Virus record (IMG/VR): IMGVR_UViG_3300021960_000046
Location: 22,740 to 86,739 of that record
Origin: a virus
Strand: one strand, 5' to 3'
Length of the DNA stretch: 64,000 nt
Shown: positions 1,964 through 13,151 of the stretch, piece by piece
How the letters are laid out: each line of letters starts with the position of its first letter
Position numbering within the stretch: the first letter of the stretch is position 1
Made by a program: the position numbers and the translations under genes
The notes under the pieces: generated by a model
Told to the model about the DNA's origin: nothing
The model's database searches: none
The model's input: only the letters and a program-made list of their open reading frames with translations

Positions 1964-4446
1964 CCGAAGAAAGCCTCCAGACTTGCCTGTGGTTCTGCTT
2001 TCCAACCAATTGCGTCTAAGATAAATCGCATAGGGTCTAAGAAAGTCTTATCAAACATAACATCATAGTCTATGTATTGTTGTAGATTAAACTCGGTTGG
2101 TAGTGTACTAATATAACTGATAACATCAAACTTAAACGGATTGGCTTCTTTGAGTTTTAGAAACTTAATCTTGTCGCCTTCTTGTATCATAGGATACTTG
2201 TTATGTAATTTGAAATTATCAATCTGATGATTATATATCAAAGCACCTTTCACATGAATTGGTGTACCTTTGATGAATATGTTACTACTACTGGTATACT
2301 TTTTAAGATTGTTACAACTTCTAGGAAAAGCAATTGCTTCTGCCGGTAGTTTGAAAAATTCTGTTCTAAAGTCTGCAATAAATTTATGTAGGTCTGTTTG
2401 TTCTTTACCCATAATAATTTTAATTGCTTCTTTAATCTTACCTCTACAAACTTGTGGTGTTGAAGACTTAACGGCTTCGATACCCATAAGTTTAAGTTTA
2501 GGTTCTGCAAGTCTAACACCTTCTTCATCAAGTACATTTAGCATGTATCTCTTCTTTGCAATCCAGATACCTTTGTTGGCAATTACTTCTCGTTTCATTA
2601 CCATGGCATTTTTAAATGCATTAGAATAATCTGCTAGTTCATCAAAACATTTTTCAATATATGGTTCAATCTTTTGTTCACAAACTTTATTTAAGAAGTC
2701 AACAATCTGGTCATTTGTTTTACCTTTGCATGTTACTTCAACTAATTTTTCTAATCGAACATAGATACTATCTGTATCAGACGCCACAATATAATCTTCG
2801 TTATCTGTATTCAATACTTTGTTTAAATAATCATTTACTTTTTTTTCAATGAAACGAATAATAAACTGACCAGCAGTTGTAATACCAGCAGCCTGTCTTA
2901 CATCATAATACCTGAAGTATTGATTACCAACTGCACCATAAGCTGAGTTCAATGCAATCTTTCTTGCCCATTGAATATTATGGCACCTTGCAATCTCTTT
3001 AACTAATTCTGGATTCTTAGTTCTTTGATATTGTTCTTTTGCCTTCAACATTCGTTTCTTATAAATCACTCGTTCTTTATACATGGTCTCCATCATTTCA
3101 GATAGAAACCCTTGGCTGTCTCTCATAAACAATGCACCGTTAGGTGTAATTGTTGCGTTCTTTTCTTTTAAGAAATCTAAATTAATTTCTCTATTCAACA
3201 TCTTCTCAACACCAACGGCTGAATGATGAGAACCAATCAGTTTTTCTGGTGAGATGTTGTATTGAATAAGAATATGTGGATAAAGAGAGTTGATATCAAA
3301 TGAAACCATCCACTTGTGTTGGCCTGGTATAGGGTCTTTTACATAAGCGCCTTCATACTTTTCATTCTTAATGTGGTCTTCTCTTGGTGGTATGCAAATA
3401 TTCTTCTTCATCAAATAGTTTGCAATCAAAGTATCCCACACTCGCACTTGTGAAAAGATATCATCATAGTTAACTTTGGATTCATATGCAACGGTCAATG
3501 CCAGTTCAATCAAACCTAGTTTGTCTTCTAGTTTGTCAACAATCTCCACATCTTGTATGTTGTAATCTACAAACCTTTGAAAGTCTTTCTCATAAAATTC
3601 TTTGAATGTGCCATAAGGGTTATCGTTCTTGTTTTCATCTAGTTCTATTTCACCAATGAAATCTAGTTTATAACTTTCTTGCCTTGTTGGAATAAACCAC
3701 TTATACAAGTCAAGGTAATCTAACATAACGGTACCAAACAAAGTATAAACTCTTTGTGGTCGACCTTGTACATGAATTACTGCATTGTCAATCAATCCCC
3801 AAGGTGACATCTTTTCAATGACCTTTTGACCTGCAACAAGTTTAATTCTTTCCATCAAATATGGTAAGTCAAAAAACTTGGTATTCCAGCCTGTGATAAT
3901 ATCAGGATGATTTTTCATCCAAAACTTCACAAACTCAAACATCAATTCTTTTTCACTCTTACATTTAATATAAGTTACATCTGTTCTATCTGTATGATAA
4001 TCGCCTACACCCCATGTAATGATGTGTTTGTTTGTTTGATTTTTTACCGTAATACATAACAACTCTTCAACTGGATTTTCTACATCTGGAAAACCATTTT
4101 CACAAGTAGTCTCAATGTCTAGTGTAAAAATTTTAATTAGTTTTTTATCCCATTCAATCTCTTGTGGGAATTCTTGGCCAATATACTGATAATGAAACCT
4201 CTCTAAACCATAGACAGGTGTATTCATCTCAGACCTCTCTTTACGATATCGTCTGGCATCCATAATATTATCAAATGTTATTGGTTGTAGATACTGACCT
4301 TGTAGGTTTTTGTAAGGAGATTTAGATGATGTTAGAGAATAGAAAGTTGGCATAAAGTCCAACTTCTCTTTGTATTCTTTACCGCCGTGTATACCACGGA
4401 CTAATAGTTTTCCTCTGTGTTCGATAACATTTTTATAAAAGTTCAT
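1960..4446 (-). CDS. gp43: family B DNA polymerase (T4 gp43-like)
   Basis: Exonuclease DIET motif; polymerase motifs SFDINSLYP, KIALNSAYG, ASDTDS. Confidence 0.98.
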   Translation of the reverse strand: MNFYKNVIEHRGKLLVRGIHGGKEYKEKLDFMPTFYSLTSSKSPYKNLQGQYLQPITFDNIMDARRYRKERSEMNTPVYGLERFHYQYIGQEFPQEIEWDKKLIKIFTLDIETTCENGFPDVENPVEELLCITVKNQTNKHIITWGVGDYHTDRTDVTYIKCKSEKELMFEFVKFWMKNHPDIITGWNTKFFDLPYLMERIKLVAGQKVIEKMSPWGLIDNAVIHVQGRPQRVYTLFGTVMLDYLDLYKWFIPTRQESYKLDFIGEIELDENKNDNPYGTFKEFYEKDFQRFVDYNIQDVEIVDKLEDKLGLIELALTVAYESKVNYDDIFSQVRVWDTLIANYLMKKNICIPPREDHIKNEKYEGAYVKDPIPGQHKWMVSFDINSLYPHILIQYNISPEKLIGSHHSAVGVEKMLNREINLDFLKEKNATITPNGALFMRDSQGFLSEMMETMYKERVIYKKRMLKAKEQYQRTKNPELVKEIARCHNIQWARKIALNSAYGAVGNQYFRYYDVRQAAGITTAGQFIIRFIEKKVNDYLNKVLNTDNEDYIVASDTDSIYVRLEKLVEVTCKGKTNDQIVDFLNKVCEQKIEPYIEKCFDELADYSNAFKNAMVMKREVIANKGIWIAKKRYMLNVLDEEGVRLAEPKLKLMGIEAVKSSTPQVCRGKIKEAIKIIMGKEQTDLHKFIADFRTEFFKLPAEAIAFPRSCNNLKKYTSSSNIFIKGTPIHVKGALIYNHQIDNFKLHNKYPMIQEGDKIKFLKLKEANPFKFDVISYISTLPTEFNLQQYIDYDVMFDKTFLDPMRFILDAIGWKAEPQASLEAFFG

Positions 4447-10052: not shown

Positions 10053-10126
10053 TGGAGCGGATGAGTGGTACTGCCCCACTTTCATTTGATTGGAAATCAA
10101 ATATAATACTTTTATACGACATCCGC
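10053..10126 (-). tRNA. tRNA-Gly(UCC), strongly atypical D and T loops
   Basis: GCGGATG/CATCCGC-TCCA acceptor, anticodon arm TTTGA-TTTCCAA-TCAAA; D-loop lacks GG; T-loop GGCAGTA. Confidence 0.82.
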
Positions 10127-10503: not shown

Positions 10504-10947
10504 CTATTTAACTTCAATAGTCTTTGGTTGTTTGTGTTCTGGAATAATTCTTTCCAAAGACACTTTTAAAAGGCCGTCTTTTAGTTCGGCACCTTTAACT
10601 TCAACATCATCAGCGATTGTAAAAGCTTTAGAGAAATATCTTTTAGCGATACCCTTATGGATAACACCATCTTCCTCGTTATCTTCTTTTTCTTCTTTGA
10701 TTGATTTGATAGTTAATACACCATCTTCCAAAGATACATCAATATCTTTTTTAGAATAACCTGCTAATGCAAGTTCAACATCATAGGTATTTTTACCTGT
10801 CTTTACAATGTTGTATGGTGGGAAATTAGGGACAGAAAGTCCTCTAAAGTCGTCTTCAAACATTCTTTCGAAATGGTCAAAGACATTATCAAAACCGATT
10901 GTTACCGGTCTTAATTGATTGAATATACTTAGTGCTTTGTTTGTCAT
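10504..10947 (-). CDS. hsp20: small heat shock protein Hsp20 (IbpA-like)
   Basis: FPPYNI, ELALAG, HKGIA.R.F...F, GLLKV.LER.IPE. Confidence 0.96.
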   Translation of the reverse strand: MTNKALSIFNQLRPVTIGFDNVFDHFERMFEDDFRGLSVPNFPPYNIVKTGKNTYDVELALAGYSKKDIDVSLEDGVLTIKSIKEEKEDNEEDGVIHKGIAKRYFSKAFTIADDVEVKGAELKDGLLKVSLERIIPEHKQPKTIEVK

Positions 10948-11011
10948 ACAAACCTCCTTTTATTAAGCAAAGTTTATTGTTATTAAATGAAAGCCCATTA
11001 TGGCACTTTCA
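10948..11011 (-). promoter_or_regulatory. ROSE-like RNA thermometer in the hsp20 5' UTR
   Basis: AAACUUUGCUU-AAUAA-AAGGAGGUUU hairpin sequesters the SD with a bulged G (UUGCU motif); second upstream hairpin UGAAAG/CUUUCA. Confidence 0.6.
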
Positions 11012-11015
11012 CATT

Positions 11016-11023
11016 TATTTATA
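11016..11023 (-). promoter_or_regulatory. T4-type late promoter upstream of hsp20
   Basis: TATAAATA. Confidence 0.7.
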
Positions 11024-11035
11024 TAGGTATTCATT

Positions 11036-11269
11036 TTAAAATGTCAACCCATAATGTATAATTAATCCTACACCAAGAATTACTATCTGTGGTGTAAAAT
11101 TGAGAAGAATACTCTTCTCTTGCCATTTGATACCCACATAGGTCCATAGAATAGCACCTAACATGTGTACTATGACATTATAAGGGTATGCTTCTGGTAT
11201 TGTGTGTAATGCTATCGCTATTAATATAGTCGAAGCAGCCACATACTTTATAATATTCACCATTTTCAT
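11036..11269 (-). CDS. small hypothetical membrane protein
   Basis: 77 aa with about three hydrophobic segments; GAGGA RBS. Confidence 0.65.
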   Translation of the reverse strand: MKMVNIIKYVAASTILIAIALHTIPEAYPYNVIVHMLGAILWTYVGIKWQEKSILLNFTPQIVILGVGLIIHYGLTF

Positions 11270-11280
11270 ATCCTCATATA

Positions 11281-11635
11281 AGTGGTAGTTTCGGTTTAGG
11301 GTCTTAAACTACCAAAGAGAGCCGCAGCTTTAGTTTGGAGATTATAGAGGTGAAACTAAGCGCAAATGCTAAAACCCCTCTGTATCTGGTAGTGGTAGGC
11401 CTCACCCACTTTTACCCTAGTATCTACTTAAAGACACATTTCCCGAGGTCACGCTAGCGACCTTTTACGGCTACGAAGGCCAATGGACCAGATAAGGTGG
11501 TAGTTTTGATAAAGCAGACTACCAACTGCTGACTATTCGGATTGAACCGAGGCGTCACCCCTTCCATCGCTGGAGGTCTTACGAATTGCCTCCACATACT
11601 ATTTATTACACTTCACGGCACAGCAGATGGAACGA
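11281..11635 (-). ncRNA. candidate large structured non-coding RNA (class unassigned)
   Basis: GC-enriched ~350 nt with no long ORF; many helices, a multibranch junction, a T-loop-like hairpin and potential pseudoknots; strand inferred from G-U pairs and context. Confidence 0.65.
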
Positions 11636-11643
11636 AATCTCTA

Positions 11644-11847
11644 TTATTTCATTCTTTCAAGTTTAGCTAATCGCTTTTTAGTATTTTTAATACCTTGCTT
11701 CTTAGCCTCTCTACGAATTTCTGAAGGTTTCATATAGTATTGTCTATCTCTAATTTCTTTGATAAGACCCTCTTTCTGAACCTTTCTTTTAAGAACACGC
11801 ATAGCCTGTTCTAAATTGCCATTTCTTACTTTTATTTCTATCGCCAA
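11644..11847 (-). CDS. rpsU: ribosomal protein bS21
   Basis: I.VRNGNLEQAMRVLKRK...G...E...RQYYMKPSE.RR; TTG start. Confidence 0.93.
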   Translation of the reverse strand: MAIEIKVRNGNLEQAMRVLKRKVQKEGLIKEIRDRQYYMKPSEIRREAKKQGIKNTKKRLAKLERMK

Positions 11848-11875
11848 ATTATACTTTAACCTTTCTTGTCCTTTT

Positions 11876-11912
11876 CAAAAAAGTGGTGGTAGGGACACTA
11901 CCCCCTACCACC
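11876..11912 (-). terminator. rho-independent terminator after the cobS-like gene
   Basis: GGTGGTAGGG/CCCTACCACC 10-bp stem followed by a T tract on the minus strand. Confidence 0.75.
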
Positions 11913-11954
11913 GTTTCGAAAGGACACTCTTCGCTTAATGCGAAGAATTGAGTA

Positions 11955-13151
11955 TTAGATAACCTCTTGGTCATCTGAGGACTCCTCCTCACTCATTTGG
12001 GAAGCAATATCAGATTGTCTTTGCTGTTCTGCTATCTGCTCAGCAGTAGCACCAGCGTCAACTTTCTGGTATAGTTCCATAAATGAATTCTTTGTATCAT
12101 CATCAAATCTGTTTGTACACACTTCAATAGCTTTCATTTTGTTATTGAAGATAGCAAACGCTTGAATGATATGTACTAACCTTCTGGTTGAAATAATCTC
12201 ATCAACACCACCATCAAAGTAGGTTTTTCTGATTACATCAGCCCAAGTTACCAACTTATTACAAAAGTCTTTGTCTTTTTTACCAGACTTTTCTAAAGTA
12301 TTGATAAGGATTTTCTCCTCAACCTTAGCAGTTGGATACTTTTGTTCAAAGGTAATTGGAAATCTTTCCAAGAACGCCTCGTTCAATACATTAGTACCGA
12401 TAAACTTACCATCATCACTACCTTGACCTTTTGTATTGGCAGTAGCAATGACATTGAAACCATCAGCAGGTTTCACAAACTTGTTAATCTTTTTAACAAA
12501 GACACCAGAGCCTTCTAAGATTGGTTGTAAACACATAATCTTATTAGACGCAAGGTCAATCTCATCAAGTAACAAGACAGCGCCTCTTTCCATGGCTTCG
12601 ATAACAGGACCATTTTGCCATACGGTCTGACCGTCTTTAAGTCTGTAACCACCTAAAAGGTCGTCTTCATCTGTCTCAATGGTAATGTTAACCCTAATAA
12701 GTTCTCTCTTATTCTCGGCACAAGCCTGAGTAACACCCATTGTCTTACCATTACCAGACAAACCAGTAATGAAGATTGGATAAAACATTCCAGATTTAAC
12801 AATCTGTTTAACATCTGGATAGTTACCAAATGAAACGAATACTGGATCCTTTTTAGGAACAATATCGCCTGTTAGTGAAGACACAACATAAGCCGCCTCA
12901 TAATTTTTTTGACTTTCTGGTGCCAAAATCTTTTCAGCAACCGGAGTAGTCTCACCAACTCCTTCACCATCAACTGGTAGTTTGAACATAGACTTACCAA
13001 TTTTGTAGTCTGAGTTCTTAATCAACCATTGAGGTGCATATTTACAGCCAAACTTTTTGTTGGCTTCTTTAAGTTGTTGAACCGTTAACTCGGCAGTACC
13101 GAATTTTTGAACGGCATAATCAACAAACTCTTTTTGTTTAGTATTTAACAT
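11955..13151 (-). CDS. cobS: CobS-like/MoxR-family AAA+ ATPase
   Basis: Walker A GLSGNGKT, Walker B LLLDEID, ATANTKG.G, VLNEAFLERF. Confidence 0.9.
   Translation of the reverse strand: MLNTKQKEFVDYAVQKFGTAELTVQQLKEANKKFGCKYAPQWLIKNSDYKIGKSMFKLPVDGEGVGETTPVAEKILAPESQKNYEAAYVVSSLTGDIVPKKDPVFVSFGNYPDVKQIVKSGMFYPIFITGLSGNGKTMGVTQACAENKRELIRVNITIETDEDDLLGGYRLKDGQTVWQNGPVIEAMERGAVLLLDEIDLASNKIMCLQPILEGSGVFVKKINKFVKPADGFNVIATANTKGQGSDDGKFIGTNVLNEAFLERFPITFEQKYPTAKVEEKILINTLEKSGKKDKDFCNKLVTWADVIRKTYFDGGVDEIISTRRLVHIIQAFAIFNNKMKAIEVCTNRFDDDTKNSFMELYQKVDAGATAEQIAEQQRQSDIASQMSEEESSDDQEVI

What the first reader, a model, noticed from the sequence alone, without database searches (positions are those of the whole stretch)
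11281..11635. About 350-nt complex structured non-coding RNA directly downstream of bS21
This is the longest gene-free stretch in a densely packed window, and it is GC-enriched. Minus-strand pairings read by eye: TTCCATC.GCTG/CAGCGATGGAA (11621-11632 with 11562-11572) around TGGAGG/CCTCCA; TGAC/GTCA capped by a T-loop-like TCGG-TTCAAT-CCGA (11537-11550); TGGTAGT/ACTACCA (11498-11524) with a possible AGCAG/CTGCT pseudoknot; TATCTGGT/ACCAGATA (11487-11494 with 11383-11390) closing a junction of four hairpins; interlocked AGAGG/CCTCT and TTAGTTT/AAACTAA helices; and a final GGTAGTTT/AAACTACC hairpin whose loop ACCCTA could pair with TAGGGT at 11414-11419. The TTGGTAGT...AAACTACCAC module occurs twice. 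A late-promoter-like AATAAATA (11600-11607) lies inside, so two isoforms are possible. It lacks tRNA, tmRNA and RNase P signatures, and I cannot assign it to a known class. It could be a ribozyme, a ribosome-associated RNA or a protein sponge.
Basis: seen in the sequence. Interest (0 to 1): 0.85.

Follow-up and report, generated by a model that had tools for sequence, protein, structure and literature searches.

The report
Pseudoknotted RNA trailing phage S21 gene
The gap behind the ribosomal-protein S21 gene of this SAR11-type ocean phage encodes a real, intricately folded RNA of about 350 bases with four pseudoknots that no RNA catalogue holds and that follows the S21 gene in every related phage examined, though its job is still only inferred.

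Summary
Confirmed. The 374-nt gap (11270-11643) between phage bS21 (11644-11847, minus) and a 77-aa DUF6552 ORF is the longest ORF-free stretch of the window. It has 0.47 G+C against 0.35 for the window.

On the minus strand it holds a modular structured RNA (about 11284-11632):
- helix P1, which encloses a late-promoter-like box (AATAAATA) and hairpin P2 with a near-invariant loop;
- a variable hairpin P3;
- an H-type pseudoknot, PK-A;
- a junction-plus-pseudoknot domain, M4;
- two further pseudoknots, PK-B and PK-C.

Compensatory changes support P2, PK-A S2, three M4 helices, PK-B S1 and PK-C S2. Alignment-free tests support P1 and the pseudoknot S1 helices.

No Rfam 15 family matches the window or 18 relatives, and ARAGORN finds nothing. 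All 80 of 80 loci fetched through bS21 carry P2 downstream. The element is single-copy in this record, HTVC008M and Mosig. RNA-library contigs of 4 of 4 laid runs cover it.

This scan met the same family before on at least eight other genomes. Its function is inferred: probably a two-isoform, protein-binding RNA of the bS21 transcription unit.

The parts
11644..11847 (-). bS21 (rpsU) gene, 67 aa, TTG start; the RNA starts just behind its stop codon
   Evidence: ORF list. PF01165 match at 62 bits, over the cut-off. 70.8% identical to Mosig bS21 and 50% to HTVC008M bS21.
11562..11632 (-). P1 helix (5' strand UUCCAUC 11626-11632 plus GC 11623-11624; 3' strand GC 11569-11570 plus GAUGGAA 11562-11568). 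It encloses the AT box and P2.
   Evidence: Coordinates. In 43 relatives the two strands differ in sequence yet stay complementary. Best-helix score over 76 unique sequences: own partner 18.6, other sequences' partners 13.8, own 3' region shuffled 12.7.
11600..11607 (-). AT box AATAAATA, a late-promoter-like NATAAATA, in the 5' side of the P1/P2 internal loop
   Evidence: Of 85 unique 5' domains, 39 carry ATAAATA, 45 a TATATAT-type box and 1 another. The box ends 5-8 nt before P2 in 30 of the 39. ATAAATA is depleted in the window and 20 of 21 sites are on the coding strand. Many sites lie 20-45 nt before start codons.
11571..11594 (-). P2 hairpin: stem UGGAGG/CCUCCA and 12-nt loop CAAUUCGUAAGA (family consensus C-N-N-Y-Y-C-R-U-A-A-G-W)
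   Evidence: 42 distinct sequences: the two top G-C pairs are invariant (42 of 42) and six lower pairs carry changes on both sides. 71 cells changed on both sides against 29.0 +/- 4.5 in shuffles (0 of 500). Slid controls reach 19-55% paired against 81.9%.
11529..11558 (-). P3 variable hairpin (outer stem UGAC/GUCA; inner UCGG/CCGA)
   Evidence: Read from the sequences: the outer stem differs and stays complementary (UGAC/GUCA, GACA/UGUC with GACC/GGUC, ACCAG/CUGGU, GCUUG/CAAGC). Not counted with a tool. The inner cap is not conserved.
11499..11530 (-). PK-A, an H-type pseudoknot: S1 AGCAG (11526-11530) with CUGCU (11513-11517); S2 GGUAGU (11518-11523) with ACUACC (11499-11504); A-rich loop 3
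   Evidence: S2: 6 pairs, 3 with changes on both sides, 100% paired in 19 sequences. S1: 38 unique modules, own partner 10.7 against 8.2 for others' partners. The S1 columns were misaligned by MAFFT and were left out.
11386..11491 (-). M4 domain: closing helix Pa CUGGU/ACCAG; single strand CCAUU; GGCCU (11477-11481) paired with AGGCC (11398-11402) in the loop of hairpin Pc GUGG/CCAC (a pseudoknot); two inner hairpins (11447-11462 and 11420-11437); conserved UCGUAGC and UAGGGUAAAA
   Evidence: Pa has 3 of 5 pairs with changes on both sides. The pseudoknot has one covarying pair (U-A in 11, C-G in 8, no exception). Pc pair 2 is A-U in 13, U-A in 4 and G-C in 2. A fourth Pc variant (GCGG/CCGC) and a new Pa (UGUGGC/GCCACA) occur in the stand-alone copy in L277.
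11322..11381 (-). PK-B: S1 AGAGG (11377-11381) with CCUCU (11346-11350); S2 UUAGUUU (11353-11359) with AAACUAA (11330-11336); near-invariant loop 1 GGUUUUAGCAUUUGCGC; trailing AGCUGCGG (11322-11329)
   Evidence: S1: 3 of 5 pairs changed on both sides, 100% of aligned cells paired. The variants AGUGG/CCACU, GGUGG/CCACC, AGAGG/CCUCU, UGAGG/CCUCG and UGAGG/CCUCA can be read. S2 never varies among 31-32 sequences, so it is neither supported nor contradicted; L050 shows one compensating change by eye.
11284..11321 (-). PK-C: S2 GGUAGUUU (11306-11313) with AAACUACC (11284-11291); probable S1 between 11315-11321 and AAGACC (11300-11305); A-rich loop 3
   Evidence: S2: 4 of 8 pairs changed on both sides, 100% paired. 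S1 is weaker: 19 unique sequences, own partner 11.7 against 9.1. No terminator-like site is called here in the window. The closest relatives L004, L006 and L030 have a run of 7-8 U behind it.
11036..11269 (-). 77-aa membrane ORF (DUF6552) inserted between the RNA and hsp20; its GAGGA Shine-Dalgarno (11271-11275) lies 8 nt behind PK-C
   Evidence: Pfam PF20189, E 5.2e-08. RNA-library contigs of relatives join 11029-11047 to 11278-11283 and so lack this ORF.
10504..10947 (-). hsp20 (small heat-shock protein), the usual downstream neighbour of the RNA, with its own TATAAATA box at 11016-11023
   Evidence: 85.9% identical to Mosig Hsp20. Of 164 loci with bS21, 139 have hsp20 within 560 nt of the bS21 stop.

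Best explanation
This is a member of an uncatalogued, modular, pseudoknot-rich RNA family that belongs to the bS21 transcription unit of SAR11-type T4-like phages (pelagimyophages).

Shown:
- The fold: P1, P2, PK-A, M4, PK-B S1 and PK-C S2 are kept by compensatory change.
- The constant position, starting 0-13 nt behind the bS21 stop codon.
- One copy per genome.
- Presence in RNA libraries.

Inferred, step 1: the RNA is made in two forms. Transcripts reading through from bS21 contain both strands of P1. Transcripts from the embedded late-type promoter box start at the foot of P2 and cannot form P1. This is the device T4 uses at genes e, soc, 49 and I-TevI. Because the 5' strand of P1 abuts the stop codon in most members, a ribosome terminating on bS21 would also open P1.

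Inferred, step 2: the P1-less form, with a 5'-terminal P2 hairpin followed by triplex-prone H-type pseudoknots, accumulates as a stable RNA.

Inferred, step 3 (weakest): its near-invariant single-stranded surfaces (the P2 loop and PK-B loop 1) and the two invariant G-C pairs at the top of P2 are binding sites for a protein. The phage's own bS21 is the prime candidate. The RNA would then buffer, deliver or feed back on the viral ribosomal protein during the take-over of translation.
For: Fold:
- Searches give covariation well above the shuffled and the slid controls.
- Searches give self-against-cross pairing tests for P1 and for the pseudoknot S1 helices.

Linkage with bS21:
- RNA-first searches: 85 of 102 sources have bS21 just upstream.
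- The bS21-first search: 80 of 80 loci carry P2 within 450 nt downstream. 71 match the strict pattern and 9 have a UCCGUAAG loop variant.
- One copy each in the own record, HTVC008M and Mosig.
- Where other genes are inserted between bS21 and hsp20 (13 loci with gaps of 700-1789 nt, the window among them), the RNA stays within 55 nt of bS21 in the window, L008, L009, L028, L035 and L039, the ones printed.

Two isoforms:
- The box is conserved and correctly spaced.
- ATAAATA is depleted and strand-biased in the window and sits before many genes.
- The HTVC008M-type short form has CATAAATA followed by P2 and no P1.
- The T4 precedent is read in passages of PMC3014915.

Presence in RNA libraries:
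- 24 metatranscriptome runs of 18 studies hold 6-20% of the sampled words.
- In 4 of 4 laid runs, contigs cover parts of 11270-11600. One is a 130-nt contig of depth 980 at 11392-11492.

Protein-binding reading:
- bS21 binds a structured non-coding RNA (OLE) at a Shine-Dalgarno/anti-Shine-Dalgarno-like duplex, where conserved G-C pairs are the determinants (PMC12054373, section 6 read).
- The window's P2 stem is UGGAGG/CCUCCA, and its two top G-C pairs are invariant in 42 of 42 sequences while the lower pairs vary freely.

Not coding:
- The frame through the P2 loop differs between the window and the L010 type. The frame through PK-B stops at different places in different relatives (sequences).
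Against: - No transcript end was mapped. All RNA runs were contigs, which show neither starts nor strand, and DNA can be present in RNA libraries.
- 45 of 85 unique 5' domains carry TATATAT-type boxes rather than NATAAATA. Their promoter activity is less sure, and the box could instead be an AU-rich RNA element such as an RNase E site.
- The T4 device masks a ribosome-binding site. Here no conserved start codon follows the 3' strand of P1. MFE folds of the P1-less form of 24 members show no common alternative partner for that strand.
- The Shine-Dalgarno-like P2 stem of the window is not conserved; only AGG/CCU at its top is common.
- bS21 linkage could be plain synteny within one lineage. All loci share the order cobS, bS21, RNA, hsp20, and bS21 genes in other contexts lack the RNA: 0 of 3 (Melnitz, Vibrio phage 2.275.O, PA5oct), and none in the whole Melnitz record.
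- The M4 module occurs alone, without bS21 or P2, in one unrelated contig (L277). At least that module therefore does not need bS21.
- No binding was tested.
Confidence: 0.45

Rival explanations
1. It is a cis-acting long leader for the genes downstream (hsp20 in most phages, the DUF6552 ORF here). It would be a riboswitch-like sensor, or a put-like nascent-RNA element made right behind the late promoter, controlling termination, read-through or translation of what follows.
For: - 139 of 164 loci have hsp20 within 560 nt of the bS21 stop, so the RNA usually ends at the hsp20 promoter.
- In the window PK-C ends 8 nt before the Shine-Dalgarno of the next ORF.
- PK-C S2 is followed by a U7-8 run in L004, L006 and L030.
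- The near-invariant core of PK-B looks like an aptamer core.
- RNA-library contigs span the RNA and the hsp20 5' region in relatives (X7 record 17).
- manA RNAs are reported in potential 5' UTRs of ibpA chaperone genes, among other genes, and some manA RNAs occur in T4-like cyanophages (PMC2864571, section 12).
Against: - hsp20 has its own TTGAMA-N17-TATAAATA promoter and its own leader hairpin behind the RNA.
- The downstream gene varies: DUF6552 ORF, a 323-aa ORF in Mosig, a methylase-like ORF in L009. In those loci the RNA stays with bS21, not with hsp20.
- No terminator-like site is called at PK-C in the window.
- No known riboswitch model matches.
- A contig across two genes does not show a single transcript (tool note).
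Confidence: 0.22
2. It is a 3' UTR armour and processing element. The chain of stable pseudoknots blocks 3'-to-5' exonucleases, and the AU-rich loop between P1 and P2 is an RNase E site. On this reading the RNA seen in libraries is a nuclease-resistant remnant of the bS21 mRNA with no function of its own.
For: - It lies directly behind the stop codon, and P1 covaries, so the read-through form matters.
- The repeated H-type pseudoknots have U-rich loop 1 and A-rich loop 3.
- Contig depths differ along the region, with M4 highest in X1.
- T4-type phages rely on host RNase E and 3' exonucleases for mRNA turnover (table in PMC3014915).
Against: - Simple protection does not need near-invariant loop sequences such as the P2 loop (27 variants, all fitting one consensus) or the 19-nt identical PK-B core.
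- It also does not explain a junction-plus-pseudoknot domain that occurs alone elsewhere.
- Short forms do with one pseudoknot.
Confidence: 0.18
3. It is a tmRNA-like or tRNA-like mimic acting on ribosome rescue or on tRNA enzymes. The pseudoknot string and the ...ACUACC-ACC ends would imitate tmRNA pseudoknots or acceptor arms.
For: - A string of pseudoknots is a hallmark of tmRNA (recalled).
- PK-A and PK-C end in ACUACC followed by AC(C/U).
- The phage carries other translation genes (tRNAs; bS21).
Against: - ARAGORN finds no tmRNA or tRNA here.
- No Rfam tmRNA or tRNA model matches at E up to 10.
- No acceptor/T-arm domain is present, and the T-loop-like cap is not conserved.
- The only alanine-first frame (GCA UUU GCG CUU AGU UUC ...) stops at different places or runs on in different relatives.
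- The 3' flanks are not CCA.
Confidence: 0.04
4. The region encodes small proteins, as annotated in Mosig (two ORFs of 38-39 aa) and as the 47-aa and 33-aa ORFs of the window would allow.
For: - ORFs 11454-11597 and 11304-11405 exist on the minus strand.
- Mosig_00014 and Mosig_00015 are annotated in the homologous stretch.
Against: - Substitutions are pairwise compensatory in stems, not synonymous.
- Indels of 1-2 nt are frequent.
- The start ATG of the 47-aa ORF is absent in Mosig.
- Frames through the conserved blocks differ between relatives.
Confidence: 0.02

Closest known systems
T4 late promoters placed inside helices that only longer early transcripts can form (genes e, soc, 49, I-TevI; review PMC3014915, passages read)
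   Same: A TATAAATA-type box lies between the two strands of a helix (P1). Transcripts starting at the box lack the 5' strand. The lineage is T4-like.
   Different: In T4 the 3' strand hides a Shine-Dalgarno or start codon. Here it is followed by a further 300 nt of structured non-coding RNA, with no conserved start codon. About half of the family has a TATATAT-type box instead of NATAAATA.
bS21-binding site in stem P6 of OLE RNA (Wencker, Lyon and Breaker 2025, PMC12054373; abstract and section 6 read)
   Same: A large structured non-coding RNA is tied to bS21. The proposed site is a duplex resembling a Shine-Dalgarno/anti-Shine-Dalgarno helix, with conserved G-C pairs as determinants. The window's P2 is UGGAGG/CCUCCA with two invariant G-C pairs.
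   Different: There is no sequence or model similarity to OLE. OLE is about 600 nt, cellular and from Bacillota, and is not next to rpsU as far as the parts I read say. The Shine-Dalgarno-like stem is not conserved in this family. Binding is untested here.
manA RNA motif (Weinberg et al. 2010, PMC2864571; section 12 read)
   Same: An orphan structured RNA found mostly in marine metagenome sequence. It is reported in potential 5' UTRs of ibpA (hsp20-type) chaperone genes among others, and some copies lie in T4-like cyanophages.
   Different: No match to the Rfam model in the window at E up to 10, nor in 18 relatives at gathering score. No manA match was found next to hsp20 in the two cyanophages looked at. 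The present RNA stays with bS21 when genes are inserted.
Pseudoknot string of tmRNA (recalled; no paper read)
   Same: Several H-type pseudoknots in a row in one RNA, connected with translation.
   Different: No tRNA-like domain, no conserved tag frame, and no hit by ARAGORN or the Rfam tmRNA models.
L17 downstream element (candidate 3' UTR element of a ribosomal-protein gene; PMC2864571, passage seen)
   Same: A conserved structure located downstream of a ribosomal-protein gene.
   Different: It is a small motif of Lactobacillales and Listeria. No similarity was found.
T4 gene 32 leader pseudoknot (mentioned in PMC10690425, passage)
   Same: An H-type pseudoknot in a T4-type phage transcript that nucleates binding of the protein encoded beside it.
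   Different: It lies in the 5' leader of the regulated gene, as a single pseudoknot followed by an unstructured AU-rich tract.

Membership tests
tmRNA (one-piece or permuted two-piece) | tRNA-like domain (acceptor stem, T arm, 3' CCA) recognised by dedicated finders | tested here: not met
   ARAGORN finds only tRNA-Thr and tRNA-Gly elsewhere in the window. No tmRNA family appears at E up to 10 over 11150-11950.
tmRNA (one-piece or permuted two-piece) | Conserved short tag reading frame with a resume codon and a stop | tested here: not met
   The GCA-first frame in PK-B ends at different places or runs on in different relatives (sequences).
manA RNA motif (Rfam) | Score at or above the family's gathering score | tested here: not met
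   No match in the window or in 18 related loci.
OLE RNA | Match to the Rfam covariance model | tested here: not met
   No match at gathering score over the whole window, nor at E up to 10 over 11150-11950.
OLE-like bS21 binding site (works-like test, not membership) | Shine-Dalgarno/anti-Shine-Dalgarno-like duplex whose conserved G-C pairs are needed for bS21 binding | tested here: inconclusive
   The window's P2 stem is UGGAGG/CCUCCA. Two G-C pairs are invariant in 42 of 42 sequences, and the third pair is A-U in 30, U-A in 7 and G-U in 5. The rest of the stem is not Shine-Dalgarno-like in relatives. Binding cannot be tested with these tools.
T4-type late-promoter-in-helix switch | Late promoter consensus between the strands of a helix that is supported as RNA | tested here: met
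   AATAAATA at 11600-11607 lies inside P1. P1 is supported. 39 of 85 unique 5' domains have ATAAATA.
T4-type late-promoter-in-helix switch | The 3' strand of the helix masks the ribosome-binding site or start codon of the regulated gene | tested here: not met
   No conserved start codon or ORF follows P1. The next gene starts about 290 nt further on.
Known riboswitch classes built on H-type pseudoknots (preQ1, SAM-II/V and others in Rfam) | Match to the covariance model | tested here: not met
   None among the 7 weak matches listed at E up to 10.
Intrinsic terminator (for PK-C S2) | G+C-rich hairpin followed by a U run | tested here: not met
   The scan of 10900-12000 calls terminator-like sites only at 11885-11912, upstream of bS21. 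The relatives L004, L006 and L030 do have a U7-8 run behind PK-C.
ROSE-type RNA thermometers of small heat-shock genes | Match to the Rfam models; pairing of the Shine-Dalgarno of the hsp gene | tested here: not met
   No match. The RNA lies upstream of the hsp20 promoter, not at its Shine-Dalgarno.

The most novel reading that the evidence does not exclude
The RNA is the dedicated partner of the virus-encoded ribosomal protein, forming a viral ribonucleoprotein. P2, and perhaps the second hairpin with the same loop in HTVC008M-type phages, would imitate the 16S rRNA 3'-end/Shine-Dalgarno helix that bS21 contacts on the ribosome. The RNA would capture newly made phage bS21 in cis, since P1 opens each time a ribosome terminates at the adjacent stop codon. 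It would then hold, deliver or feed back on the protein, so timing the re-equipping of SAR11 ribosomes for late phage translation. This would be the first RNA cofactor known for a viral ribosomal protein, and a second, independent case after OLE of bS21 moonlighting on a large non-coding RNA.
Probability: 0.17. Interest if true: 0.9.

Novelty: categorically new. Interest (0 to 1): 0.74.

Why it matters
- **Abundance and context.** Pelagimyophages infect SAR11, among the most abundant bacteria in the sea. bS21 is reported as a core gene of all pelagimyophages and as what sets their translation genes apart from those of cyanomyophages. The same paper argues that no other viral factor is needed for it (PMC7029224, passages read).
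- **A missed neighbour.** A complex, conserved RNA glued to that gene in every relative examined suggests that the paper's view missed a partner.
- **A study system for viral ribosomal proteins.** If the RNA binds bS21 or ribosomes, it opens a direct way to study why viruses carry ribosomal proteins, which is an open question.
- **Value to RNA biology whatever its function.** It adds a large RNA of about 350 nt with four pseudoknots, built from modules that are shuffled between phages and partly used alone.
- **A T4 trick in new use.** It is also an example of the T4 late-promoter-in-a-helix device applied to a non-coding RNA.
- **Annotation.** It corrects two small 'hypothetical proteins' annotated in Mosig, which lie inside this RNA.

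Tried and rejected
1. **Single-sequence folding.** MFE z-scores of -0.89 (minus strand) and -1.18 (plus strand) do not single out the region or its strand. The strand was settled by G-U-containing covariation and gene order.
2. **tmRNA, tRNA-like or tag reading.** Rejected.
3. **ACCCUA/UAGGGU contact and T-loop cap.** Not kept in relatives.
4. **Antisense role of the P2 loop.** 7-mers complementary to the loop are not enriched in the 86.7-kb record: 31 against 43.3 +/- 10.9 in mononucleotide shuffles.
5. **Alternative partner for the 3' strand of P1 in the late form.** None is common to the MFE folds of 24 members (pseudoknots not modelled).
6. **manA next to hsp20 in cyanophages P-HM2 and S-TIM4.** No Rfam match, so no side-by-side comparison was possible.
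7. **Cellular homologue.**
   - The 19-nt PK-B core occurs twice in one genome each of 185,579 species. Both hits are chance matches: the L103 hit lies in a coding frame, and the model scores only 18-21 bits over the core alone in both.
   - The 3' region of the SAR11 host's own rpsU could not be fetched. The top 120 bS21 relatives are all 70-100% identical to the window's bS21 and so too close to be the host's, and the control genomes give no handle.
8. **Covariance model R1.** It did not re-align the window-type PK-B S1, so those rows count as gaps. The MFE-free MAFFT alignments A3 and A5 do not align the 3' strand of P1, so P1 was tested without an alignment. The PK-A S1 columns were left out for the same reason.
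9. **Gaps in RNA-library cover.** Parts of the laid stretch had little or no cover in the RNA libraries (bS21 coding region, the DUF6552 ORF).
10. **Flanking ORFs.** Pfam and PHROGs on the HTVC008M ORF between bS21 and the RNA give only a sub-threshold winged-helix hint.
11. **Not attempted.** Complex prediction was not used, because it takes no RNA.
12. **Literature.**
    - Searches and passages of PMC9723584, PMC6375957, PMC7029224, PMC12753301, PMC5069720 and PMC10690425 mention no RNA behind phage bS21.
    - Supplements are closed. The tables of more than ten thousand viral candidate RNAs of PMC10690425 could hold this motif unnamed.
13. **Loci dropped or unresolved.**
    - Dropped before counts as chance matches: L017, L027, L046 and L051, L064, L066, L071, L083, L094.
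    - Dropped likewise: second hits of the loose P2 pattern, most of them inside coding sequence such as cobS.
    - Not resolved: L072, L077, L082, L099.
    - Cut at the contig end: L012, L042, L092.
    - L088 has P2, PK-B and PK-C behind a different short ORF end.
Full report
**What the window is**

The window is part of an 86,739-base IMG/VR virus record. Its nearest isolate in the phage collection is Pelagibacter phage Mosig EXVC030M, at about 82% identity over the cobT-cobS-bS21-hsp20 block.

On the minus strand the gene order is:
- cobT and cobS;
- a strong terminator-like hairpin (11885-11912);
- bS21 (11644-11847);
- the stretch in question;
- a 77-aa DUF6552 membrane ORF (11036-11269);
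- hsp20 (10504-10947);
- then the sliding clamp.

**The observation**

11270-11643 is the longest part of the window without a minus-strand ORF of 60 aa or more. It measures 374 nt; the next is 178 nt and holds two tRNAs. G+C is 0.466 against 0.349 for the window.

Single-sequence folding is not remarkable (z = -0.89), so the case rests on comparison with relatives.

**Relatives**

A pairwise alignment with Mosig already showed compensating changes in three hairpins. Two exact-word scans of IMG/VR followed:
- a 17-mer from PK-B gave 45 stretches;
- a 16-mer from P2 gave 57 stretches.

Of the 102 sources then held (window plus 101 loci), 85 have a bS21 gene just upstream of the match. The other 17 split as follows:
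- 9 are chance matches by inspection;
- 3 are cut by a contig end;
- L088 carries P2, PK-B and PK-C behind another short ORF;
- 4 were not resolved.

In the reverse direction, a search through bS21 returned 80 loci with 58-76% identical proteins. All 80 carry the P2 motif within 450 nt downstream: 71 match the strict pattern and 9 have a UCCGUAAG loop variant.

The P2 pattern occurs exactly once in the own record, once in HTVC008M (147 kb) and once in Mosig (141 kb). It does not occur in the OM43 phage Melnitz, whose bS21 sits elsewhere. bS21 genes of Vibrio phage 2.275.O and Pseudomonas phage PA5oct also lack it.

**Anatomy (minus strand, window coordinates)**

- **P1.** UUCCAUC (11626-11632) plus GC pairs with GC plus GAUGGAA (11562-11570). 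P1 encloses an AU-rich box (AATAAATA, 11600-11607) and P2.
- **P2.** Spans 11571-11594: stem UGGAGG/CCUCCA and loop CAAUUCGUAAGA.
- **P3.** A variable hairpin at 11529-11558.
- **PK-A.** An H-type pseudoknot at 11499-11530.
- **M4.** Spans 11386-11491. Helix Pa closes a junction. GGCCU pairs with AGGCC in the loop of hairpin Pc. Two inner hairpins and conserved single strands complete it.
- **PK-B.** Spans 11330-11381 and has a near-invariant loop 1.
- **PK-C.** Spans 11284-11321.

PK-A and PK-C share one design: S1, two or three U, S2 GGURGU(UU), S1', an A-rich loop, then S2'.

The family is modular:
- Short forms keep P1/P2 and a single pseudoknot.
- HTVC008M-type phages have a winged-helix-like ORF between bS21 and the RNA and no P1. 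They have CATAAATA directly before P2, a second hairpin with the same CUCGUAAA-type loop, and one pseudoknot.
- A GCUAGCGU-loop hairpin sits inside M4 in the window but behind M4 in other members.
- M4 occurs alone, with new compensating variants of Pa and Pc, in a contig without bS21 or P2 (L277). An earlier report of this scan had said so, and I confirmed one case.

**Covariation**

- **P2 (42 distinct sequences).** 81.9% of cells are paired against 61.3 +/- 1.8 in shuffles (0 of 500). 71 cells are changed on both sides against 29.0 +/- 4.5. Slid controls reach 19-55%. The two top G-C pairs never vary.
- **3' domain.** Sequences were aligned with covariance model R1 (48 matches in 89 sources, 33 distinct rows).
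  - PK-B S1 has 3 of 5 pairs changed on both sides, and PK-C S2 has 4 of 8. All aligned cells are paired.
  - Over the three helices counted, 99.5% of cells are paired against 94.7 +/- 0.3. That alignment was fitted to the model, which favours it.
  - PK-B S2 never varies, so it is neither supported nor contradicted.
- **Middle part (19 sequences, plain MAFFT).** PK-A S2, M4 Pa, the M4 pseudoknot and Pc give 98.7% paired against 89.5 +/- 0.9 (0 of 500). 43 cells are changed on both sides against 14.6 +/- 3.4. Slid controls reach 33-58%.
- **P1 and the S1 helices.** These could not be put in register by MAFFT, so I compared each sequence's best helix with its own partner against partners from other sequences.
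  - P1: 18.6 against 13.8, and 12.7 after shuffling (76 sequences).
  - PK-A-type S1: 10.7 against 8.2 (38 sequences).
  - PK-C S1: 11.7 against 9.1 (19 sequences; the weakest of the three).

**Not a known family, not coding**

- Rfam 15 gives only tRNAs in the window.
- Over 11150-11950 it gives seven weak, unrelated matches at E up to 10.
- In 18 related loci it gives only tRNAs.
- ARAGORN finds nothing here.
- Reading frames through the conserved blocks differ between relatives. The two small ORFs annotated in Mosig are therefore most likely spurious.
- The literature searches and the passages read mention no such RNA. Supplementary tables, in particular those of PMC10690425, could not be seen.

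**Expression**

24 metatranscriptome runs from 18 studies hold 6-20% of the sampled words of 11036-11900. Four runs from four studies were laid and all four carry contigs on parts of 11270-11600. Among them:
- a 130-nt contig of depth 980 at 11392-11492;
- a mismatch-free 111-nt contig at 11472-11582;
- contigs of relatives that join the RNA directly to the hsp20 region, skipping the DUF6552 ORF.

Contigs show presence in RNA libraries. They show neither transcript ends nor strand.

**How it may work**

*Two isoforms.* ATAAATA behaves as a real signal in this window. There are 21 sites against 35.8 +/- 6.3 expected, 20 of the 21 lie on the coding strand, and many sit 20-45 nt before start codons. 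The copy inside the RNA ends 5 nt before P2. Across the family the spacing is 5-8 nt in 30 of the 39 domains that carry the box. A late transcript would therefore start at the foot of P2 and lack the 5' strand of P1. Transcripts reading through from bS21 can form P1.

*The T4 parallel.* This is the arrangement T4 uses at genes e, soc, 49 and I-TevI (PMC3014915). An earlier report of this scan pointed me to that parallel. What P1 masks here is not a ribosome-binding site, and I found no conserved alternative partner for its 3' strand.

*Coupling to translation.* The 5' strand of P1 begins 0-3 nt behind the stop codon in most members and 13 nt behind it in the window. Termination of bS21 translation would therefore also open P1 (inference).

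*Which unit the RNA belongs to.* Where other genes lie between bS21 and hsp20 (13 loci with gaps of 700-1789 nt), the RNA starts within 55 nt of bS21 in the window, L008, L009, L028, L035 and L039, printed, so the extra genes lie behind it. This places the RNA in the bS21 unit rather than in the hsp20 leader.

*A protein partner.* The near-invariant loops call for a specific partner. bS21 is the obvious candidate, because it binds OLE RNA at a Shine-Dalgarno/anti-Shine-Dalgarno-like duplex with critical G-C pairs (PMC12054373), and P2 has two invariant G-C pairs under its loop. That step is a hypothesis only.

**Verdict**

The family has already been met by this scan on at least eight other genomes, with the same overall conclusion. 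The function is open. My best reading (0.45) is a two-isoform, protein-binding RNA of the bS21 unit. The rivals are:
- a cis-acting leader for downstream genes (0.22);
- a nuclease-resistant 3' UTR remnant (0.18);
- a tmRNA- or tRNA-like mimic (0.04);
- small proteins (0.02).

Noticed in passing
window 11885-11912 (minus) and 11848-11884: A strong terminator-like hairpin (11 pairs, 7 of them G-C, followed by a U run) lies between cobS and bS21. bS21 starts with TTG immediately behind a TATAAT-like hexamer. How bS21 is transcribed and started is therefore unclear.
   Followed up: no
window 10989-11023 (minus): The hsp20 leader has a TATAAATA box followed after 5 nt by the hairpin GAAAGUGCCAUAAUGGGCUUUC. 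In relatives its stem changes in a compensating way while the inner GCCAUAAUGGG-like part is kept (sequences). It looks like a second promoter-plus-5'-hairpin unit.
   Followed up: partly
window 10056-10126 (minus): Rfam calls a tRNA here at 43.7 bits, but ARAGORN does not report it. It is an atypical tRNA-like gene between hsp20 and the clamp gene.
   Followed up: no
whole window: ATAAATA is depleted (21 sites against 35.8 +/- 6.3 expected) and 20 of the 21 sites lie on the minus strand, many 20-45 nt before start codons. This is a usable map of candidate late promoters.
   Followed up: partly
L277 (IMG/VR contig), about 1316-1405 on its plus-strand numbering: The M4 junction-plus-pseudoknot module stands alone, behind a terminator-like hairpin and before a TTGACA-N17-TATTAT promoter. 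The contig has neither bS21 nor P2. The module carries new compensating variants (Pa UGUGGC/GCCACA, Pc GCGG/CCGC).
   Followed up: partly
window 11577-11588; relatives' M4 inner hairpin (e.g. L005, L008, L225, L258, L277): An RUAAGA loop motif recurs. It forms the 3' half of the P2 loop (CGUAAGA). It also forms the hexaloop of an M4 inner hairpin whose stem covaries (CUUG/CAAG, CUUA/UAAG, CGAC/GUCG, CUCA/UGAG). HTVC008M-type RNAs have two hairpins with CUCGUAAA-type loops.
   Followed up: partly
L001 (Mosig) 3205-3321 and 3334-3453: Two annotated 'hypothetical proteins' (Mosig_00014 and Mosig_00015, 38-39 aa) lie inside the homologous RNA. They are most likely spurious calls.
   Followed up: partly
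L190 (Pseudomonas phage PA5oct) and L189 (Vibrio phage 2.275.O): In PA5oct, bS21 lies three genes upstream of a heat-shock protein gene and next to clpX. In the Vibrio phage, bS21 sits between IF-3 and an L7/L12/ClpS-like gene. Neither has the P2 motif. The bS21-hsp pairing may recur outside pelagimyophages.
   Followed up: no
window 11447-11462; relatives behind M4 (alignment A7 columns about 290-320): A hairpin with a GCUAGCGU(K)A-type loop sits inside M4 in the window-type RNAs. In other members it lies as a separate covarying hairpin between M4 and PK-B. This is evidence of module shuffling.
   Followed up: no
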